From a virus, in the IMG/VR virus record IMGVR_UViG_3300025572_000006, positions 1-37,640 of that record: a DNA stretch of 37,640 bases. One strand, written 5' to 3'. The position numbers were made by a program, and so were the translations under genes. Below are positions 4,479 through 14,416 of the stretch, one piece after another (positions within the stretch are counted from its first letter, which is position 1; every line of letters begins with the position of its first letter). Under the pieces are notes generated by a model. That model was not told where the DNA came from and did no database searches. It was given only the letters and a program-made list of their open reading frames with translations.

Positions 4479-5685
4479 TGATTAACTCCGCTTTCTTGCC
4501 TGTGTACTTTTCCCAGCGATTGATGATGATGTCGCAATACTTGGGGTCTATTTCCATCCCATACACGCGGCGCCCATGTTTCTCACACGCAATGAACGCA
4601 GTGCCAGATCCAGCGAACGGCTCATATAATAGGTCGCCCTGTTTGGTATGATTCTTAATAGGTATTTCGTACAAAAGAATAGGCTTCTGAGTGGGGTGTG
4701 GAGTCTTATCCTCTTTCGAGCCGCCCATTATGTGAGCTGGCGGTGCCGCATCCCAAACTGTGACCTGTTTGCGATCTCCGACCCAATTCGCATCACATCC
4801 TTTTCTAACTGCATACCAACAAGGCTCATGCTTCCAGTGATATGCAGATCTCCCCATTATCATTACTGACTTGTTCCATATTATCTGCTGTCGCACCTCG
4901 AAACCGGCTCGTCGAAGAGAATCCATAACAACATCAGTGAACGCTGATGCGTGCCAAACGTATGCAATATCAGCATTGCAGATCGCCCAGGCGTCGTACC
5001 AATCAGCCCTGTCATCATTACTAACTAGATTGGCGTTACAACTTCCAAGCTTCTTGTCGCCAAGAGCATCGTCTCTCCATGACAGATCCAGATTGACGCC
5101 ATAAGGAGGATCTGTGACCATAAGCAGCGCCTTCTCACCAGCCATCAACTTCTCAACATCATCAATGCTCGTCGAATCCCCACACATGAGCCGATGCCGT
5201 CCCAATCGCCAAATGTCTCCACGCTTTGTTATTGGCTCAACTGGCGCCGTTGGAACTTCATCCTCATCGCATTGCGGCTCAAATTCCTCCGGCAGTTTAA
5301 AATCCGGAATACCAAGAAGATCGAAGTCAAAATCAGGTCCCAAATCCAAAACGTCGTTCAAAACCATCGAAAGATCGGTTTCTGCGAGTTCTGCGATTTT
5401 GTTATCGGCCACCATATCGGCGTATTCGTCGGCTTCATTCGCGTAGTCCTGCCGATCAATCGGCGCTTTGGTCCAACCGTTGAGTTTTGCTGCCTCGAGC
5501 CGAGCATGGCCTTTAACGATGAACCCTGACCGATTCGACACCACGATCGGCGCTCGCCAACCTTGGTGCCTCATGATTTTTGCCAGAAGCTCGATTTGCC
5601 TTTTCGGATGTTTGTTCGGGTTCTTTGGATTCGGAACCAATAAATCAATATCGATAATTTCAGTGTGAGCGCATTTGATTTCCAT
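4471..5685 (-). CDS. ParB-like nuclease domain fused to a DPPY (N6-adenine type) DNA methyltransferase
   Basis: 404 aa. N-terminus 'LVPNPKNPNKHPKRQIELLAKIMRHQGWRAPIVV' is ParB/Srx-like. 'LMVTDPPYGV' is motif IV and 'YEPFAGSGTAFIACEKHGRRVYGMEIDPKY' is motif I. Confidence 0.85.
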   Translation of the reverse strand: MEIKCAHTEIIDIDLLVPNPKNPNKHPKRQIELLAKIMRHQGWRAPIVVSNRSGFIVKGHARLEAAKLNGWTKAPIDRQDYANEADEYADMVADNKIAELAETDLSMVLNDVLDLGPDFDFDLLGIPDFKLPEEFEPQCDEDEVPTAPVEPITKRGDIWRLGRHRLMCGDSTSIDDVEKLMAGEKALLMVTDPPYGVNLDLSWRDDALGDKKLGSCNANLVSNDDRADWYDAWAICNADIAYVWHASAFTDVVMDSLRRAGFEVRQQIIWNKSVMIMGRSAYHWKHEPCWYAVRKGCDANWVGDRKQVTVWDAAPPAHIMGGSKEDKTPHPTQKPILLYEIPIKNHTKQGDLLYEPFAGSGTAFIACEKHGRRVYGMEIDPKYCDIIINRWEKYTGKKAELING

Positions 5686-5707
5686 GCTTTCATTGTCGTT
5701 GCTATCC

Positions 5708-5727
5708 TGTTTACATCAATGTAAACA
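5708..5727. promoter_or_regulatory. Palindromic motif copy B (TGTTTACAT-CA-ATGTAAACA) in the divergent control region
   Basis: Perfect 9-2-9 palindrome between the late-operon start (ATG 5685, minus) and the RHH-like gene (ATG 5783, plus). A half-site ATGTAAACA at 5775-5783 ends on that ATG. Confidence 0.6.
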
Positions 5728-5748
5728 TCGCTCGAGTTTAATTTCCGT

Positions 5749-5776
5749 TTGATCTTCGAGAATGTTTTCATAGAAT
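5749..5776 (+). promoter_or_regulatory. Candidate sigma70-type promoter giving a leaderless transcript of the RHH-like gene
   Basis: TTGATC (5749-5754), 16-nt spacer, TAGAAT (5771-5776), then 6 nt to ATG 5783. No Shine-Dalgarno sequence precedes the ATG. Confidence 0.35.
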
Positions 5777-5782
5777 GTAAAC

Positions 5783-5992
5783 ATGGATTTGAAAGAGAGA
5801 ATCCGCGAACTTCTTAAAAGCTTTCCTGTAGAGCAAAAAGTTGAACCAAAAGATCGGAAGCCGCTTACAATCTGGATTCGACCAGAGGAAAAAATGCGAT
5901 ACGATATTCTGCAGGCAAAAAGCTCTCGTGAGTTTTCAAAACTGCTTCAAAACATCGTGAGAGAAACGATCAATTCAGTTGACACGCCTTGA
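5783..5992 (+). CDS. Small ribbon-helix-helix-like DNA-binding protein (candidate regulator)
   Basis: 69 aa. 'KPLTIWIRPEEKMRYDILQAKSSREFSKLLQNIVRETI' fits a beta-strand plus two helices as in Arc/CopG folds. Divergent from the late operon. Confidence 0.5.
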   Translation: MDLKERIRELLKSFPVEQKVEPKDRKPLTIWIRPEEKMRYDILQAKSSREFSKLLQNIVRETINSVDTP

Positions 5993-9413: not shown

Positions 9414-9521
9414 TCACCCCTGTTTCGTTTCAGCGTCACCGCTCGGACACTCACACGCACTCCAGTTATCGCAAATAGCGCAGTACCTTCGATCATCTGC
9501 CATTTGAGCCAACATTCTCAT
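9414..9521 (-). CDS. 35-aa Cys-rich peptide
   Basis: MRMLAQMADDRRYCAICDNWSACECPSGDAETKQG. ATGA overlap with the C5-methylase stop. Confidence 0.4.
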   Translation of the reverse strand: MRMLAQMADDRRYCAICDNWSACECPSGDAETKQG

Positions 9522-10564
9522 GCTATGAACTCCTTCGCCGCTTTGATGAATTCCGCCGCCGCTTGGGCAACGATTGCATTGCCGTAACACCGCAATCGTC
9601 CCACTCTTTCGGGAGCCCCATTAGCCAACGGGAATGTGCCGGGTTCAACTGGCCGAAATTTCCCGTCTCGGCAAAAGATCCAGTCAGCAGGCCCCCAGAA
9701 TCCACGAGTTGCGCTTGCAAATTGAGGGATGTCAGCGACACTCCGATACTCAAGCCTGATTCCTTTACAGCTTTCTTCCTCGCCAAGAATTGCTCCGGTG
9801 TGCTGCCCGTGGCATCGTTCGCGATCGGTGATGGCCATGCCGCGAGTGACGCTATCGTGAAAAGTTTCCGACCCGTGGACTTCATCGGTTCCACTCCGCC
9901 CGTGCAATCGCAGGCCCGCGGACTCGGCCAAGTCGCAAGCGCTGCCGCTACCGGTAATCGATCGATCTCCTGATTCGAGCCGCCATTCGGCCCATCTTGC
10001 GCGCACGTTGTGGGCCACGAACCAAATTCTGGATCGGATGTGCGGCGCGCCGACGCCACAAGCTGGAAATACGATCGGCGCGATGGCGTAACCTTCTCCT
10101 TCCAAGTCAGTCGATACAATGTCGAGCCAAGCGATGCCGTCACGAGACGCAACCTGTTCGCCAAAGATTGTGTCAGGGCGATACTCTCGAATGAGCCACT
10201 GCCATGCGGGCCATAAGTGCCGCTCGTCAGAAGTCCCTTTTCTTCTGCCTGCCGCGGAGAAAGGTTGACATGGACACGAGCCAGTCCAGACCGGCTTGTC
10301 ATCGGGCCATCCTGCGAGTCGGAGCGCGTAGGACCAGACGCCGATTCCGGCGAAGAAGTGATGTTGTGTGAATCCTTCAAGATCGCTTGGTCTGACATCC
10401 CTGATATCCCTTTCATCGACTTCGCCAGCAGCGATAAGTCCTTCCTTGATGAGTTCACGAAGCCATGCTGCTGCTTTCGGATCGATCTCGTTGTAATAGG
10501 CCCTCATCGAGCGTTGTCCTTCAGAATCGTTGTCGGACCGTGAGTTACTAAATAGATGTCGCAT
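9518..10564 (-). CDS. DNA (cytosine-5)-methyltransferase (frame A)
   Basis: Motif I 'FFAGIGVWS', IV 'GSCPCQPFSAAG', VI 'FGEQV', VIII 'GAPHIRSRIWFVA', X 'YGNAIVAQAAAEFI'. The likely true start is ATG 10507 (MRAYYNEIDP...). Confidence 0.85.
   Translation of the reverse strand: MRHLFSNSRSDNDSEGQRSMRAYYNEIDPKAAAWLRELIKEGLIAAGEVDERDIRDVRPSDLEGFTQHHFFAGIGVWSYALRLAGWPDDKPVWTGSCPCQPFSAAGRRKGTSDERHLWPAWQWLIREYRPDTIFGEQVASRDGIAWLDIVSTDLEGEGYAIAPIVFPACGVGAPHIRSRIWFVAHNVRARWAEWRLESGDRSITGSGSACDLAESAGLRLHGRSGTDEVHGSETFHDSVTRGMAITDRERCHGQHTGAILGEEESCKGIRLEYRSVADIPQFASATRGFWGPADWIFCRDGKFRPVEPGTFPLANGAPERVGRLRCYGNAIVAQAAAEFIKAAKEFIA
9523..10302 (-). CDS. Nested same-strand ORF in another frame (frame B): WPxP-repeat / 'LNPAHSRWLMGLP' protein
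   Basis: Open for 311 codons (9523..10458). ATG 10302 has an AGGA 7 nt upstream. Three W-P-[ST]-[TP]-x-A-x-D-x-x-G repeats and 'QLNPAHSRWLMGLPKEWDDC' resemble TRD/motif-IX regions of phage C5-methylases. Confidence 0.4.
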   Translation of the reverse strand: MTSRSGLARVHVNLSPRQAEEKGLLTSGTYGPHGSGSFESIALTQSLANRLRLVTASLGSTLYRLTWKEKVTPSRRSYFQLVASARRTSDPEFGSWPTTCAQDGPNGGSNQEIDRLPVAAALATWPSPRACDCTGGVEPMKSTGRKLFTIASLAAWPSPIANDATGSTPEQFLARKKAVKESGLSIGVSLTSLNLQAQLVDSGGLLTGSFAETGNFGQLNPAHSRWLMGLPKEWDDCGVTAMQSLPKRRRNSSKRRRSS

Positions 10565-12048: not shown

Positions 12049-12236
12049 CTGCGCCCTCCGCGCTTGATTCCAATCCGCCACTTTTCCAGTTCATCAAAAC
12101 GCTTGATCCAATCAAGCATCGTCGAGTGACTAACGCCGAGCGATTTCGCCGCTTTCACGGGATTGCCTGCAAACATCTCAAGTCTTTCATTCGCAAGTTT
12201 CAGTTTGATTTCGTGAAGCGTTGGTAAGTTGTTCAT
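12045..12236 (-). CDS. Small HTH DNA-binding protein (63 aa)
   Basis: 'AAKSLGVSHSTMLDWIKRF' is HTH-like. 4-nt overlap with the methylase stop. Confidence 0.55.
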   Translation of the reverse strand: MNNLPTLHEIKLKLANERLEMFAGNPVKAAKSLGVSHSTMLDWIKRFDELEKWRIGIKRGGRR

Positions 12237-13669
12237 GCGATCTCCAACTCAAGTTGCGTTTTAAAATTCCAATCCTCTATGCGCTTCAAAGCCATTTCCC
12301 GATATTCCGGGTTTATTTCTATGCCGAGAAATTGGCGTCCGTGTTTCTTACAAACAATTCCGGTTGTGCCAGCCCCGGCGAATGGGTCAAGCACCAAATC
12401 GCCAGGTCGTGAGCCAGCGAGAATACAAGGCTCGATCAAATCTGGGGGGAATGTTGCTAGATGAGCGCCTTTGAATGGCTTGGTCGAAACCGTCCAGACC
12501 GAGCGTTTGTTCCTCGTGTTGTTGGGAATCCTCTGCCTTACTTTTTGGGCACGACCAAGTTGATGTTCCCCGGTTTTCCCAGTGTGAAACTGAGATCCGC
12601 GCCAGCCGCAAGTAGCCGGTTCTTTAATCGCCTCATTATCGAAGAAGTAACGCTCCGATTTCGCGAGTAAAAAAATGTACTCGTGCGCTTTGGTGCATCG
12701 ATCGCGCACTGATTCAGGCATCGGGTTCGGTTTGTGCCAGATCACATCCTGCCGGAGATACCACCCAGGCTCTACAGCAATCCTCGGTTCGACCATCCAA
12801 GATGGAAGATCGACATTCTCACGAGCATTCAGCTTCTGGAGTATTTCTCTGCACAGCAACTGCTTTGCGAGAGCGTCCTCTGGGATCTTTGCGCCTCGCT
12901 TCGTTTCGTAGCTGTCTCGAACGGTTTGCAGGTTGTAAGCGACAACAGCCTGCTTTCTCTTAACCAACAGGTACGGATAGATCTCGGCCAAGATGTCGGC
13001 AGCCTTCCTGCTGTGTATGCGCCACTGGTAGGAACCTCGCTGTCCGCCTTGGGACGGCGGTTCCTGCTTGGGAGATCCCTTTCCGTACCCGGTAATTTCA
13101 CAGCAGCGAATGATTGGCTCAGGGTCGCACATCCGCACCTGAAGGATTGGCGGGTAACTGTTTCCTGACCCATGCCCGGACTTGCACTCAAGCGCGGTGA
13201 TGCAACCTTCACCGTCGATCAGCGCCGCCAGCCATGCGCGGTCGATCCTGTCCTTGATCCGGACGCGCTCGTACGGCTGTTGCAGTGCGAATGCAAGACG
13301 CCAAGGAATGCCGACTAGGTCTTTAGGTTTGAGGCCATTTGGAATTTTGCAGGACTTTCCTAGCTGAAAATGAGTCCCTTTGTTTGACGATTGTTTGTCG
13401 GAAAGCTTTAACGAACCTCGGCCCTGTCCACCGGCGTAACTATCGCCAAGGTTGAGCCACAGCGTTCCGTCATCTTTCAAAACACGTCGAACTTCTCGAA
13501 ACACTTCAACTAACTTCTCGACGTATTCTTCCGGCGTTTTCTCAAGGCCGATCTGTCCATGAACTCCATAATCGCGCAGTCCCCAGTATGGCGGGGACGT
13601 AACGCAAGTTTGCACCGACTCAGACTCAAGAGTTTTCAATGTTTCTAGCGCGTCGCCGAGAAGAATCAT
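12233..13669 (-). CDS. SPPY-type (N4-C/N6-A, beta-class) DNA methyltransferase with an inserted LAGLIDADG-like module
   Basis: 'CVTSPPYWGLRDYG' is motif IV. Also 'GWYLRQDVIWHKPNPMPESVRDR' and 'VLDPFAGAGTTGIVCKKHGRQFLGIEINPEY' (motif I). About 169 aa are inserted at 12770-13276, containing 'AWLAALIDGEGC'. The start is set at ATG 13669 (ATGA coupling). Confidence 0.85.
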   Translation of the reverse strand: MILLGDALETLKTLESESVQTCVTSPPYWGLRDYGVHGQIGLEKTPEEYVEKLVEVFREVRRVLKDDGTLWLNLGDSYAGGQGRGSLKLSDKQSSNKGTHFQLGKSCKIPNGLKPKDLVGIPWRLAFALQQPYERVRIKDRIDRAWLAALIDGEGCITALECKSGHGSGNSYPPILQVRMCDPEPIIRCCEITGYGKGSPKQEPPSQGGQRGSYQWRIHSRKAADILAEIYPYLLVKRKQAVVAYNLQTVRDSYETKRGAKIPEDALAKQLLCREILQKLNARENVDLPSWMVEPRIAVEPGWYLRQDVIWHKPNPMPESVRDRCTKAHEYIFLLAKSERYFFDNEAIKEPATCGWRGSQFHTGKTGEHQLGRAQKVRQRIPNNTRNKRSVWTVSTKPFKGAHLATFPPDLIEPCILAGSRPGDLVLDPFAGAGTTGIVCKKHGRQFLGIEINPEYREMALKRIEDWNFKTQLELEIA

Positions 13670-13848
13670 GCGTTCCTCTTCATGCGTTGAATTCTCGCCT
13701 CGAGGCGAATGCATCTGACTTCGAGTTTCAAAATCCGCTCTCGTAACGTTTTGTTTTCCTCGATCGTGCGAATGAGTTCCTCGCGCAGCCAATTCATGTG
13801 CTGTTCGCGTTCATCGTTATATGTGTTCGGATGATAAACTGTTGACAT
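13666..13848 (-). CDS. Hypothetical 60-aa coiled-coil protein
   Basis: MSTVYHPNTYNDEREQHMNWLREELIRTIEENKTLRERILKLEVRCIRLEARIQRMKRNA. Its stop overlaps the methylase ATG (ATGA). Confidence 0.45.
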   Translation of the reverse strand: MSTVYHPNTYNDEREQHMNWLREELIRTIEENKTLRERILKLEVRCIRLEARIQRMKRNA

Positions 13849-14416
13849 CACAAGACCCCGGAAGTCTGAGAAATGAACTCAAAACTTCTTTTGCTGATGC
13901 GAGCTCGCCTTGCGCTTTAGGTGTTGCGCTTGGAAGGCCGATCGCGTCCGCAATCGCTTCGTCTGAATGCGTAAGCTGTGTTTTCGCAAGCTCCCGCACT
14001 TGCGCTTGAAACACGGTCGGATCAATCGAAAGGCCAAGATGTTCGCAGATGTATGACCACCCGCCTTGTTTTTGAACGACTCGCCAGCCAACTTCGCCAA
14101 TATAGGCTCGCGCTTCTTGCGGATTCGCCCATCCGAATTTCGGGACGGCCGCAGTGATTCGTGCGGCGATTTCGCGTGCAGCCGACTCAGGATCGACTTG
14201 CGGCTGAACGATCTCTCGAATTTGTGCGGGTAGCGGCATCGTGCGATTTTTCGGATTGCGTCGATACTTCTCCATTGCATCGCGCACCTGCGCGAAGTCG
14301 AGATCCGAAAGATCGTCGGCGTACATTCGCAGGACAACATCGTCCAGTCTCATGCGGTAATAGCCCGCATAAGCCGCCCAGAGGGCCGCCAGTTGATTTT
14401 TTTCAGCGGGGGTCAT
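13817..14416 (-). CDS. Replication-associated protein (possible helicase loader)
   Basis: 199 aa from ATG 14416 (SD AGGGGGTGA). It follows the initiator-like gene. 'LAALWAAYAGYY..VVLRMYADDLSDLDFAQVRDAMEKY' resembles loader/G39P-type N-termini (from memory only). Confidence 0.4.
   Translation of the reverse strand: MTPAEKNQLAALWAAYAGYYRMRLDDVVLRMYADDLSDLDFAQVRDAMEKYRRNPKNRTMPLPAQIREIVQPQVDPESAAREIAARITAAVPKFGWANPQEARAYIGEVGWRVVQKQGGWSYICEHLGLSIDPTVFQAQVRELAKTQLTHSDEAIADAIGLPSATPKAQGELASAKEVLSSFLRLPGSCDVNSLSSEHI

What the first reader, a model, noticed from the sequence alone, without database searches (positions are those of the whole stretch)
12770..13276. I-CreI-sized LAGLIDADG-like module inserted in-frame in an SPPY DNA methyltransferase, with no intein hallmarks
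The methylase core is normally contiguous ('...IPWRLAFALQQ' then 'PGWYLRQDVIWHKPNPMPES'). Here it is interrupted by about 169 aa.

The insertion contains one LAGLIDADG-type helix ('RAWLAALIDGEGCI') and the expected downstream pattern: 'YPPILQVRM', 'GYGKG', 'YQWRIHSRKAADILAEIYPYLLVKRKQA'. The size matches a single-motif homodimeric homing endonuclease.

The boundaries lack intein signatures. There is no Cys/Ser at the N-junction and no His-Asn plus Cys/Ser/Thr at the C-junction. The module is therefore probably retained in the mature enzyme.

Possible roles are a domesticated endonuclease acting as an extra DNA-recognition domain, a methylase-nuclease hybrid, or a homing element that invaded a coding sequence without a splicing mechanism.
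Basis: partly seen in the sequence, partly recalled or inferred. Interest (0 to 1): 0.72.

Follow-up and report, generated by a model that had tools for sequence, protein, structure and literature searches.

The report
Spliceless homing endonuclease inside phage methylase
A phage DNA methyltransferase gene carries an in-frame I-CreI-like LAGLIDADG endonuclease domain with no intein or intron machinery, and nearly identical copies of it sit in otherwise very different methylase genes, so it looks like a selfish homing element that stays in the finished protein.

Summary
The 478-aa beta-class (SPPY) DNA methyltransferase at window 12233-13669(-) is interrupted between residues 131 and 301 by a 169-aa module.

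- **Fold:** the module is an I-CreI/I-CvuI/I-MsoI-type single-motif LAGLIDADG domain (pLDDT 94, TM 0.66-0.76, profile E down to 8e-20). The catalytic acid (E154, matching I-CreI D20) and lysine (K237, matching K98) are conserved.
- **No splicing apparatus:** there is no intein nucleophile, no His-Asn, no HINT domain and no intron RNA match.
- **Empty alleles:** insert-free homologues read ALxA-D-GWYLRQDIIW at this exact point.

The new result concerns mobility.
- The 513-nt segment is 96-100% identical at DNA level in four methylase genes from independent metagenomes, whose flanks are only about 45-80% identical and whose GC3 ranges from 0.50 to 0.82.
- A second insert lineage shows the same pattern (100% against 65-69%). 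A third is weaker (88% against about 56%).
- A sister phage has an 83%-identical methylase but a 31%-identical insert.
- Presence or absence of the insert needs at least 16 gains or losses on the host tree.

My best reading is an actively or recently homing endonuclease element that is tolerated as a permanent domain in a permissive loop. The closest precedent is the non-intein LAGLIDADG domain in actinophage C5 methylases (Gosselin 2023), where no transfer was detected. I class this as a new variant of a known kind.

The parts
12233..13669 (-). Complete gene for a 478-aa beta-class (motif IV before motif I) N6A/N4C DNA methyltransferase carrying the insertion. The stop codon is at 12233-12235.
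   Evidence: ORF list and sequence. Pfam PF01555 at E 8e-51, split in two stretches. Foldseek matches to CcrM, M.BceJIV, M.RsrI, M.MboIIA and M.PvuII. An identical protein, P0008, is in public data.
13277..13669 (-). N-terminal methylase segment, residues 1-131. It ends in the helix IPWRLAFALQQ and includes the catalytic motif IV, TSPPY.
   Evidence: Alignment A1: T24, S25, P26, P27 and Y28 are invariant. The model has a helix at residues 121-130.
13586..13597 (-). Motif IV, SPPY (residues 25-28), the methyltransferase catalytic loop.
   Evidence: Invariant in 96 homologues with and without the insert.
12767..13279 (-). The mobile block as defined by nucleotide identity: codons 131-301 (513 nt). 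It takes the place of the two codons (Ala-Asp) found in empty alleles.
   Evidence: 96-100% nt identity to P0009, P0010 and P0011, against about 45-80% in the flanks. The upstream break is sharp, between codons 130 and 131. Lineage B breaks at the same point. Insert GC3 is 0.66 against 0.505 for the host gene.
12770..13276 (-).
   Evidence: AF2 pLDDT 94.1 and pTM 0.89, with an alpha-beta-beta-alpha-beta-beta-alpha core followed by extra helices. Foldseek matches I-CvuI, I-CreI and I-MsoI at TM 0.66-0.76. phrog_5046 at E 2e-26.
13250..13276 (-). N-terminal stalk, PYERVRIKD (residues 132-140). It is conserved as PY(Y/E)xxxIK in embedded copies and absent from the free-standing relatives examined.
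   Evidence: Alignment A3. Strand residues 3-4 of the insert are modelled next to residues 167-168, which I read as pairing.
13205..13231 (-). LAGLIDADG motif, LAALIDGEG (residues 147-155). E154 is the predicted metal-binding catalytic acid, equivalent to I-CreI D20.
   Evidence: D152 and G155 are invariant, and position 154 is E or D in all sequences. The profile alignment to I-CreI, I-MsoI and I-CvuI places the motif on LAGFVDGDG.
12947..12979 (-). YPYLLVKRKQA (residues 231-241). It contains K237, the equivalent of the I-CreI active-site residue K98.
   Evidence: K106 in insert numbering is invariant, Q109 is invariant, and P101 and A110 are nearly invariant. The segment aligns with PFLKLKQKQA of I-CreI.
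12767..12829 (-). C-terminal return linker, NARENVDLPSWMVEPRIAVEP (residues 281-301). It brings the chain back to the methylase. The motif LNxxxxVDLPSWxxEP is conserved in embedded copies only.
   Evidence: Alignments A2 and A3. Terminal strand in the model.
12734..12766 (-). Downstream flank, GWYLRQDVIWH (codons 302-312). It shows variable-length identity with other carriers of the same insert, which resembles a co-conversion tract.
   Evidence: Identity with the window runs to codon 312 in P0009, 305 in P0011 and about 295-301 in P0010. In lineage B it runs about 12 codons into the flank.
12236..12766 (-). C-terminal methylase segment, residues 302-478. It includes NPMPES, a variable target-recognition region and the AdoMet motif I, DPFAGAGTTG (12359-12388).
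   Evidence: Pfam stretch 301-461 matches profile positions 69-220. D428, P429, F430, G432 and T435 are invariant.

Best explanation
The segment is a selfish LAGLIDADG homing-endonuclease element that has no intron and no intein.

**What it is.** It sits in frame in a permissive surface loop of a temperate-phage beta-class DNA methyltransferase, between the helix ...AFALQ and the strand GWYLRQDxIW. It is translated as part of the methylase and stays in the mature protein as an extra domain. Two short conserved linker segments appear to pair into a stalk that holds the domain away from the methylase core.

**How it spreads (inferred).** Two fusion proteins pair through their LAGLIDADG helices, as I-CreI does. 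The dimer cuts insert-free alleles of the methylase gene in a co-resident phage or prophage, at or just downstream of the conserved AL(Q/R)A-D-GWYLRQD coding sequence. Double-strand-break repair then copies the 513-nt block, plus a variable stretch of the downstream flank, into the cut allele.

**Shown here.**
- The fold and the conserved catalytic residues.
- The absence of splicing features.
- The exact empty site.
- Recent lateral transfer between divergent methylase genes.

**Inferred, not shown.** Nuclease activity, dimerisation, the cleavage site, and continued methylase activity of the fusion protein.
For: **Identity of the domain**
- AF2 model with pLDDT 94, and Foldseek top hits I-CvuI, I-CreI and I-MsoI at TM 0.66-0.76.
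- Profile-to-PDB E values from 8e-20 to 1e-9.
- The acidic residue at the end of the motif and the K98-equivalent lysine are invariant across embedded and free-standing relatives.

**No splicing**
- The junctions are Q|P and EP|G, and there is no intein or HINT Pfam hit.
- There is no Rfam intron hit even at E<=10.
- All of the roughly 184 embedded homologues recovered read through in frame.
- The alternative-frame ORFs inside the insert have no Pfam match.

**Mobility**
- Across 112 insert-bearing relatives of the window protein, insert identity and host identity are essentially uncorrelated (r=0.08). In a broader, more divergent set of 140 canonical-site proteins the correlation is weak (r=0.31).
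- The window's insert is 97-98% identical in protein and 96-100% in DNA to those of P0009-P0012, while the hosts are 60-67% identical. These copies come from different samples and have different neighbouring genes.
- In lineage B (P0013 against P0018) the insert is 100% identical at nt level and the flanks 65-69%. In lineage C the figures are 88% and 56%.
- 39 of the 47 pairs with at least 90% identical inserts have hosts below 75% identity.
- P0016 has an 83%-identical host but a 31%-identical insert.
- The left boundary falls at the same codon in two lineages, and the right boundary varies.
- Insert GC3 is constant at about 0.66 while host GC3 ranges from 0.50 to 0.82.
- The closest host relatives of the window methylase within the 217-sequence tree set are insert-free (78-79%). 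P0016, at 83%, is closer but was left out of that set. The host tree needs at least 16 gains or losses.

**Tolerance by the host protein**
- The methylase motifs are invariant in carriers.
- The full-length model has pLDDT 88 and pTM 0.85, with both domains folded.
- The same loop holds an unrelated 50-aa insertion in L075.

**Generality**
- The same LAGLIDADG clade sits at two other sites in this methylase family and in actinophage C5 methylases (PMC9957025).
Against: - No biochemical data exist: cleavage, dimerisation and the fate of the protein are all untested.
- Pfam LAGLIDADG models do not reach threshold on this particular insert.
- The I-CreI Q47 equivalent cannot be placed with confidence.
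- Empty sites show no pseudo-palindrome above background at the insertion point, although one might be expected for a homodimeric enzyme.
- The linker segments are conserved across very divergent insert lineages. This could instead mean long-term co-adaptation with the methylase, that is, partial domestication.
- Transfer could in principle be driven by ordinary recombination between the highly conserved flanking motifs and not by the element's own nuclease.
Confidence: 0.7

Rival explanations
1. The LAGLIDADG block moves between methylase alleles, but not through its own nuclease. It could be an inactive or merely DNA-binding passenger that is shuffled by general homologous recombination between the strongly conserved flanking motifs (AFALQ and GWYLRQDIIW) during co-infection, or it could be mobilised by another nuclease acting in trans.
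For: - The flanking coding sequence is among the most conserved in the gene, so it could serve as recombination substrate.
- Phage genomes carrying these genes also encode RecT, RusA and similar functions.
- No palindromic target signal was found.
- Nuclease activity is untested.
Against: - The catalytic acid and lysine are invariant over lineages that share only 26-30% identity. That is not expected for an inert passenger.
- The left boundary is identical to the codon in independent transfers. Recombination within about 30 nt of imperfect homology would not be expected to be this precise or this frequent.
- The pattern matches that of inteins and homing introns.
Confidence: 0.13
2. The module is a domesticated domain. 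On this view it is now a fixed functional part of the enzyme, for example an extra DNA-recognition or dimerisation module, or a nuclease partner forming a single-chain restriction-modification-like enzyme. Its distribution would reflect ancient gain and repeated loss.
For: - Ninety-four of the best 150 representative clusters matching the insert are methylases carrying it.
- The stalk and return-linker motifs are specific to embedded copies and are conserved.
- pTM 0.85 suggests a defined inter-domain arrangement.
- In actinophage C5 methylases the analogous domain co-diverges with its host (PMC9957025).
Against: - Vertical inheritance cannot give inserts that are 100% identical at nt level inside genes that are 65% identical, nor a 31%-identical insert in an 83%-identical host.
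- The insert's GC content is foreign to each host gene.
- Most relatives in IMG/VR work without the insert (74 of 86 scored sites are empty).
- LAGLIDADG enzymes have not been described as restriction-modification components (PMC9957025).
Confidence: 0.1
3. The module is an atypical intein or another self-excising protein element, so the mature methylase lacks it.
For: - It is an in-frame insertion in a conserved region of a phage replication-module gene, which is a typical intein niche.
- A true intein sits 12 residues away in P0016.
Against: - There is no Cys/Ser/Thr at position 1 of the insert (it is Pro) or at +1 of the C-flank (it is Gly), and no terminal His-Asn.
- The 169 aa are fully accounted for by the LAGLIDADG fold plus a two-strand stalk, which leaves no room for a roughly 130-aa HINT domain.
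- There is no intein Pfam hit, whereas P0016's intein is detected, weakly and below Pfam's curated cut-off, by the same scan.
Confidence: 0.04
4. The segment is a group I or group II intron whose endonuclease ORF happens to be in frame, and it is removed at RNA level.
For: LAGLIDADG genes are classically intron-borne, and intron ORFs are often fused in frame to the upstream exon.
Against: - There is no Rfam intron match at E<=10 over 12200-13800.
- Only about 9 codons precede the endonuclease core and about 20 follow it, so there is no room for a ribozyme core.
- Every occupied allele recovered here reads through into the downstream exon in frame. Frame-disrupted alleles would have been called as two genes and so would not appear in this set.
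- The junction peptides are conserved at protein level across lineages. Neither feature would be selected in a spliced intron.
Confidence: 0.03

Closest known systems
Non-intein 'second homing endonuclease' LAGLIDADG domain in cluster-F mycobacteriophage methylases (Taj_79, DotProduct gp64; Gosselin, Arsenault, Jennings and Gogarten 2023, Genes 14:288, PMC9957025)
   Same: - Both are LAGLIDADG domains embedded in frame in a phage orphan DNA methylase, without a splicing domain.
- Both are predicted to fold as a separate domain.
- In both cases the same gene family also hosts true inteins at a different site.
- The domains are homologous: tblastn gives 27-29% identity to DotProduct gp64 and Gordonia Whitney gp80, and the Mantra methylase appears among the fold hits.
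   Different: - The host there is a C5-cytosine methylase (PF00145), not PF01555.
- That paper found the domain restricted to one clan, co-diverging with its host, with no strong evidence of transfer.
- Here at least two, and probably three, insert lineages show near-identical DNA in hosts that are 55-70% identical, and the family is widespread in metagenomes.
- The conserved stalk and return-linker motifs and the exact empty site are defined here.
I-CreI / I-CvuI / I-MsoI: single-motif homodimeric LAGLIDADG homing endonucleases of group I introns
   Same: - Same fold and size.
- Same motif helix ending in an acidic residue, and the same conserved K98-equivalent lysine.
- They are the best structural and profile matches.
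   Different: - Those enzymes are free-standing proteins encoded inside self-splicing rRNA introns.
- This domain is a continuous part of a host polypeptide with added linkers.
- Sequence identity is only 15-19%.
Inteins with LAGLIDADG endonuclease domains (for example the intein in the homologue P0016, or PI-SceI-type inteins)
   Same: - Both are in-frame selfish insertions in conserved motifs of phage replication and modification genes.
- Both show the homing-type evolutionary pattern of a patchy distribution and an insert less diverged than its host.
   Different: - This insert has no HINT splicing domain and no nucleophiles.
- It has a single LAGLIDADG motif, where intein endonucleases have two.
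- It is presumably never excised.
ShiLan domain, a hidden out-of-frame HNH homing element in actinophage methylases (Arsenault et al. 2025, Genes 16:178, PMC11855218)
   Same: - Both are spliceless, actively transferring insertions that stay open in frame with a phage methylase.
- Both are tolerated as a loop or an extra domain.
   Different: - There the endonuclease is an HNH enzyme encoded in another reading frame.
- Here the endonuclease is the in-frame polypeptide itself, and the alternative frames are empty.
Free-standing phage LAGLIDADG genes (phrog_5046; for example Streptomyces phage Sushi23, Gordonia phage Keitabear)
   Same: They belong to the same sequence family: phrog_5046 at E 2e-26, tblastn at 31% identity, and matching BFVD fold hits.
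   Different: - They are separate genes, some lying next to methylase genes.
- The free-standing relatives aligned here (P0005-P0007) lack the N-terminal stalk and C-terminal return linker. The named phage genes were not themselves aligned.

Membership tests
LAGLIDADG homing endonuclease, single-motif (I-CreI-type) | A LAGLIDADG helix ending in a conserved acidic metal-binding residue. | tested here: met
   The motif LAALIDGEG is present. Position 154 is E or D in all 22 to 68 aligned relatives, and it aligns to I-CreI D20.
LAGLIDADG homing endonuclease, single-motif (I-CreI-type) | An alpha-beta-beta-alpha-beta-beta-alpha core fold forming a beta-saddle. | tested here: met
   AF2 gives pLDDT 94. 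Foldseek matches I-CvuI, I-CreI and I-MsoI at E 2e-8 to 1e-6 and TM 0.66-0.76 over about 155 columns.
LAGLIDADG homing endonuclease, single-motif (I-CreI-type) | A sequence-profile match to curated family models. | tested here: inconclusive
   No Pfam LAGLIDADG hit for this insert, even at E<=1. The homologues P0063 and P0071 pass PF00961, and a family profile matches I-MsoI, I-CvuI and I-CreI in PDB at 8e-20 to 1e-9.
LAGLIDADG homing endonuclease, single-motif (I-CreI-type) | Homodimerisation and site-specific double-strand cleavage leaving 4-nt 3' overhangs. | not testable with these tools
   This needs protein biochemistry or a multimer model. The palindrome scan of empty sites was uninformative.
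LAGLIDADG homing endonuclease, single-motif (I-CreI-type) | The evolutionary signature of homing: a sporadic distribution, and an insert phylogeny that disagrees with the host gene phylogeny. | tested here: met
Intein | A Cys/Ser (or class-3 equivalent) at the N-terminal splice junction and a Cys/Ser/Thr at +1 of the C-extein. | tested here: not met
   The insert starts with Pro132, and the residue after the insert is Gly302.
Intein | A C-terminal His-Asn and a HINT splicing domain (blocks A, B, F and G). | tested here: not met
   The insert ends in ...AVEP. There is no Intein_splicing or Hint Pfam hit. The entire 169 aa models as a LAGLIDADG fold plus stalk. As a positive control, the intein in P0016 has Cys1 and His-Asn|Cys and gives weak, sub-threshold Intein_splicing and LAGLIDADG_3 hits.
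Group I / II self-splicing intron | A conserved ribozyme core detectable by covariance models. | tested here: not met
   The Rfam 15 scan of 12200-13800 at E<=10 gave only two chance-level non-intron hits.
Beta-class N6A/N4C DNA methyltransferase (Pfam PF01555) | Motif IV (S/D/N)PP(Y/F) lying N-terminal to AdoMet motif I (FxGxG), with a Rossmann-like methyltransferase fold. | tested here: met
   PF01555 at E 8e-51. SPPY at residues 25-28 and DPFAGAG at residues 428-434 are invariant. Foldseek matches CcrM, M.BceJIV, RsrI, MboIIA and PvuII.
Beta-class N6A/N4C DNA methyltransferase (Pfam PF01555) | Methyl-transfer activity and base specificity (N6-A or N4-C). | not testable with these tools
   The SPPY motif is more typical of N4-cytosine enzymes (general knowledge), but annotations of homologues disagree with each other.
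Non-intein LAGLIDADG insertion in phage methylases (Gosselin et al. 2023) | A LAGLIDADG domain inside a phage methylase ORF, outside any intein. | tested here: met
   The domain is homologous to the one in DotProduct gp64.
Non-intein LAGLIDADG insertion in phage methylases (Gosselin et al. 2023) | The host is the actinophage C5-cytosine methylase pham, and the insertion lies at that family's site. | tested here: not met
   DotProduct gp64 and Whitney gp80 are PF00145. The window gene is PF01555.

The most novel reading that the evidence does not exclude
The domain is more than a tolerated parasite. On this reading, this clade of LAGLIDADG elements has evolved dedicated stalk and return-linker adaptors that let it live permanently inside methyltransferases, and the fusion works as a coupled methylase-meganuclease. 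Possibilities include LAGLIDADG-mediated dimerisation that positions two methylase cores, or a nuclease that destroys insert-free alleles in competing phages while the attached methylase marks or protects the carrier genome. That would amount to a single-polypeptide gene-drive and modification module.
Probability: 0.15. Interest if true: 0.85.

Novelty: new variant of a known kind. Interest (0 to 1): 0.62.

Why it matters
**Why it is unusual.** Homing endonucleases are usually thought to survive inside essential or conserved coding sequences only by hiding in a self-splicing intron or intein. Otherwise they sit between genes.

**What this case adds.** This looks like a third strategy operating at scale. 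The endonuclease domain itself, equipped with short adaptor segments, is inserted in frame into a permissive loop and simply remains part of the host protein. It still shows a clear DNA-level signature of recent spread between very different phage genes. The one published precedent (PMC9957025) involved a different methylase family and found no evidence of transfer.

**Practical consequences.**
- It gives a set of natural, compact I-CreI-like enzymes whose target is probably defined: the conserved AL(Q/R)A-D-GWYLRQDIIW coding sequence.
- It gives a natural example of domain insertion that a methyltransferase fold appears to tolerate.
- It is a warning for annotation, because these proteins are labelled only 'DNA methylase' and the related PHROG family is mislabelled 'HNH endonuclease'.
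- A cultured carrier, Hydrogenophaga defluvii CCUG 53903, makes the hypothesis directly testable.

Tried and rejected
- **Pfam and NCBIfam on the insert alone.** No LAGLIDADG hit, only a sub-threshold DUF3924 match. Profile and fold methods were needed instead.
- **Single-sequence PDB search.** It gave only marginal I-CvuI and I-MsoI hits, E 0.03-1.6. The profile search superseded it.
- **Intron test.** The Rfam scan at E<=10 found nothing relevant.
- **Hidden-ORF test, by analogy with ShiLan.** The alternative-frame ORFs 12829-13212(-) and 12734-13168(+) have no Pfam match. I treat them as by-products of GC richness.
- **Pseudo-palindrome scan around the empty site in 72 alleles.** There was no enrichment at the insertion point. 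Modest peaks at +17 and +24/25 nt are no higher than peaks elsewhere in the gene, so no target site is claimed.
- **Genome-collection scans.** The alignment A3 was too divergent to seed a scan. The single-sequence scan of genome contigs found nothing. A tighter alignment, A4, found 10 loci, including the Hydrogenophaga prophage.
- **Megablast of the window against isolated phages.** Only about 150-nt matches in an unrelated gene, so the phage itself is not a known isolate.
- **Long IMG/VR 'matches' (L012, L054, L055, L059, L085, L020).** When translated, these turned out to be joined hits to neighbouring methylase genes, not further insertions.
- **Assembly chimera as the cause of identical inserts.** I considered and rejected this, because the four carriers come from different samples and assemblers, have different neighbouring genes, and have in-frame junctions.
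Full report
**1. What is in the window**

The minus-strand ORF 12233-13792 most likely starts at ATG 13669. That ATG overlaps the stop codon of the upstream ORF in an ATGA arrangement and follows an AGAGGA Shine-Dalgarno-like sequence. An identical 478-aa protein (P0008) has been called on a public metagenome contig.

The protein is a beta-class amino-methyltransferase.
- Pfam N6_N4_Mtase matches at E 8e-51, but in two stretches. The C-terminal stretch starts at residue 301 and at profile position 69.

The surrounding genes are those of a temperate-phage early region: RusA, a tyrosine integrase, RecT and a second, C5-type methylase. The window as a whole has 48.8% GC and resembles no isolated phage.

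**2. The segment is an insertion with exact boundaries**

A search with the full protein returned many homologues of 470-560 aa that cover the whole query, and also homologues of 320-350 aa that lack the segment. In the alignment, the short forms read ...PWRVAFALQA-D-GWYLRQDIIW, while the window reads ...PWRLAFALQQ-[169 aa]-P-GWYLRQDVIW.

A scan of IMG/VR with the family alignment gave 80 loci.
- 74 sites are empty, always with a single spacer residue, usually Asp.
- Four IMG/VR loci (L011-L014) carry a LAGLIDADG insert at this site.
- One locus (L075) carries an unrelated 50-aa helical insertion at the same point. The loop is therefore permissive.

**3. The insert is an I-CreI-type LAGLIDADG domain**

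Pfam and NCBIfam are silent on the insert alone. Other methods are not.
- It matches the 161-position phage family phrog_5046 at E 2e-26. That family is labelled 'HNH endonuclease', which appears to be a misnomer.
- AlphaFold2 with a 68-sequence alignment gives pLDDT 94.1 and pTM 0.89, with a helix, two beta-hairpin units and further helices.
- Foldseek against PDB ranks I-CvuI, I-CreI and I-MsoI first (E 2e-8 to 1e-6, TM 0.66-0.76, about 155 aligned columns). The viral library returns phage LAGLIDADG endonucleases and the Mycobacterium phage Mantra methylase.
- A profile of 19 diverse embedded copies plus three free-standing relatives matches I-MsoI (8e-20), I-CvuI (2e-12) and I-CreI (about 1e-9). 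This alignment places the window's LAALIDGEG on LAGFVDGDG and YPYLLVKRKQA on QPFLKLKQKQA.

From the I-CreI literature (my own knowledge), D20 is the metal-binding catalytic acid and K98 is an active-site lysine.
- Their equivalents here are E154 and K237.
- K237 is invariant, and position 154 is always Glu or Asp, in every embedded and free-standing relative aligned.
- The Q47 equivalent cannot be placed with confidence.

The full-length model (pLDDT 88, pTM 0.85) shows both an intact methylase core and the I-CreI-like domain. The core's best matches are CcrM, M.BceJIV, M.RsrI, M.MboIIA and M.PvuII.

In the models, the first and last residues of the insert form short strands that I read as pairing into a two-stranded stalk. 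These stalk segments are PY(Y/E)xxxIK at the N end and LNxxxxVDLPSWxxEPxxxxE(P) at the C end. They are conserved in embedded copies and absent from the free-standing relatives P0005-P0007.

**4. It is neither an intein nor an intron**

Against an intein:
- The junction residues are Gln131|Pro132 and Glu300-Pro301|Gly302. There is no nucleophile on either side and no His-Asn.
- The 169 aa are fully used by the endonuclease fold and the stalk, so there is no room for a HINT domain. No intein family is hit.
- The family offers an internal control. The homologue P0016 (803 aa) carries, 12 residues downstream in the motif DIIW|HKPNPMPES, a canonical intein that begins with Cys, ends with His-Asn and is followed by Cys. 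It has its own two-motif LAGLIDADG domain. The same Pfam scan detects it only weakly, below the curated cut-off for Intein_splicing.

Against an intron:
- The Rfam scan at E<=10 finds nothing.
- Only about 9 codons precede the endonuclease core and about 20 follow it.
- All of the roughly 184 embedded homologues recovered read through into the downstream exon, with junction peptides conserved at protein level. Frame-broken alleles would have been called as two genes and would not appear in this set.

Unlike the ShiLan element, the alternative reading frames of the insert encode nothing recognisable. Retention in the mature protein is therefore the best inference, but it has not been shown.

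**5. The insert has moved recently between divergent methylase genes**

This is the main new result.

*Uncoupled divergence.* Across 112 insert-bearing relatives of the window protein, insert identity and host identity are essentially uncorrelated (r=0.08). In a broader, more divergent set of 140 proteins with the insert at the canonical site, the correlation is weak (r=0.31). In that set, 39 of the 47 pairs with inserts at least 90% identical have hosts below 75% identity.

*The window's own lineage (A).* The window's insert is 97-98% identical to those of P0009-P0012, whose methylase parts are only 60-67% identical. I retrieved the DNA of three of them. They come from different samples and assemblers and have different neighbouring genes.

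| Region of the gene | nt identity to the window |
|---|---|
| Flanks | about 45-80% |
| Codons 131-301 | 96-100% |

- The upstream break is sharp and identical in all three: dense synonymous differences up to codon 130, then none from CAG-CCG onward.
- The downstream identity runs on for a variable distance, to codon 312 in P0009, to 305 in P0011, and ending around 295-301 in P0010.

*Replicates.*
- Lineage B: P0013 against P0018 has a 100% identical insert, flanks of 65-69%, the same left break before CAG-CCN, and about 12 codons of shared downstream flank.
- Lineage C: P0044 against P0058 gives 88% against 56%.

*The converse case.* The phage carrying P0016 has a methylase 83% identical in protein, and 80-100% identical in nt at its 3' end, with a syntenic neighbourhood. 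Its insert is only 31% identical.

*Composition.* The lineage-A insert has GC3 of about 0.66 wherever it sits, while the host genes range from 0.505 (the window) to 0.82 (P0009).

*Patchy distribution.*
- On a neighbour-joining tree of 217 methylase cores with inserts removed, presence or absence needs at least 16 changes. Shuffled labels give about 63.
- Within that tree set, the window's closest host relatives are insert-free alleles at 78-79% identity. P0016, at 83%, is closer but was left out of the set.

Sharp element ends, variable flank co-conversion, a sporadic distribution, incongruent divergence and conserved catalytic residues together form the classical signature of homing.

**6. 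Scope of the phenomenon**

- An exhaustive HMMER search with the insert found 4363 representative clusters at E<=1e-3.
- Of the best 150, 94 are N6_N4 methylases carrying the domain, 33 are two-domain proteins of about 300 aa, and 21 are small single-domain proteins.
- The same LAGLIDADG clade also sits at two other positions in this methylase family. One is after the HEYIFLLSKS strand, in proteins whose canonical site is empty. The other is before GLKPKDL.
- It also occurs in C5 methylases of Mycobacterium and Gordonia phages.
- A cultured carrier exists: Hydrogenophaga defluvii CCUG 53903 encodes a 533-aa methylase with a 59%-identical insert at the same site.

**7. Mechanism**

*Shown.*
- The fold.
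- The conserved active-site residues.
- The absence of splicing features.
- The empty site.
- Recent lateral transfer with element-precise boundaries.
- Intact methylase motifs in carriers.

*Inferred from established knowledge of I-CreI-type enzymes.*
- The fusion protein dimerises through the LAGLIDADG helices.
- The dimer cleaves insert-free alleles near the AL(Q/R)A-D-GWYLRQD coding sequence.
- Recombinational repair from the occupied allele copies the block. The longer downstream co-conversion suggests that the cut lies on the 3' side of the insertion point.

I could not infer the target. A palindrome scan of 72 empty sites gave no signal above background. Whether the methylase still works, and whether the domain contributes to it, is untested.

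**8. Comparison with what is known**

The closest precedent is Gosselin et al. 2023 (PMC9957025). It reports a 139-aa LAGLIDADG domain outside the intein in nine cluster-F actinophage methylases. I find those methylases to be C5 enzymes, and their domain is a distant homologue of this one. The paper found the domain confined to one clan and co-diverging with its host, and it left open whether the domain is a selfish element.

The same group's ShiLan element is a spliceless insertion whose HNH gene lies in another frame (PMC11855218).

Three full-text searches found no description of LAGLIDADG insertions in PF01555 methylases.

I therefore class this as a new variant of a known kind. It involves a different host family, a defined insertion site and adaptor segments, and direct DNA-level evidence of repeated transfer, which the published case lacks.

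**9. Verdict**

- The main rivals are passive recombination of an inactive passenger (0.13) and domestication (0.10).
- Interest is 0.62.

Noticed in passing
L008 about 4925-5878 (protein P0016 residues ~309-626): A close relative of the window methylase (83% identical core, syntenic phage) carries two insertions. One is a divergent LAGLIDADG insert at the usual site. The other is a canonical intein (Cys1 ... Thr-His-Asn|Cys, with its own two-motif LAGLIDADG domain) that splits the DIIW|HKPNPMPES motif only 12 residues downstream.
   Followed up: partly
L075:1501-2694: An IMG/VR homologue has an unrelated 50-aa, apparently helical insertion (DGAASPAHMRDIERIIAAV...HIDANRG) at exactly the same ALRA|GWYLRQD loop. 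This suggests the site is a general hotspot that tolerates insertions.
   Followed up: no
proteins P0193, P0258, P0261, P0231 and P0164: The same LAGLIDADG family occupies two other positions in PF01555 methylases. One is after the HE(Y/A)(I/L)F.L.KS strand, where the canonical site is empty. The other is upstream of GLKPKQLLGIPW. The clade has therefore colonised at least three sites in this family.
   Followed up: partly
window 9518-10564 (-): The same phage region has a second DNA methyltransferase gene, of the C5-cytosine type (PF00145, E 9e-15). The Hydrogenophaga prophage likewise has methylase genes on both sides of the insert-bearing one (L095).
   Followed up: no
phage records H51-H53 and H64-H66 (Gordonia phages SchottB, Barsten, Nordenberg, Thing3): Weak tblastn matches of the insert (30% identity, E about 1e-3) fall inside genes annotated as minor capsid or MuF-like head-morphogenesis proteins. 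In Gordonia phages Ailee and Bibwit a free-standing relative lies directly next to a DNA methylase gene. These may be further in-frame or adjacent LAGLIDADG elements.
   Followed up: no
phrog_5046 and RefSeq annotations: The PHROG family that best matches the insert, and several RefSeq phage genes of the same family, are labelled 'HNH endonuclease'. Their fold and motif are LAGLIDADG, so this is probably an annotation error that has propagated.
   Followed up: partly
window 12767-13279 versus the rest of the gene and window: The insert is a compositional island. Its GC is 56.7% and GC3 0.66, against 50.1% and 0.505 for the rest of the methylase gene and 48.8% for the whole window.
   Followed up: yes
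window 13666-13851 (-) and 13666-13669: The 61-aa upstream ORF ends in an ATGA overlap with the methylase start codon. This suggests translational coupling within the early operon.
   Followed up: no
L014:632-2563: One insert-bearing homologue (644 aa) has further lineage-specific insertions. They include a Cys-rich (CPECGAP...CDC) segment just before the AdoMet-binding motif.
   Followed up: no
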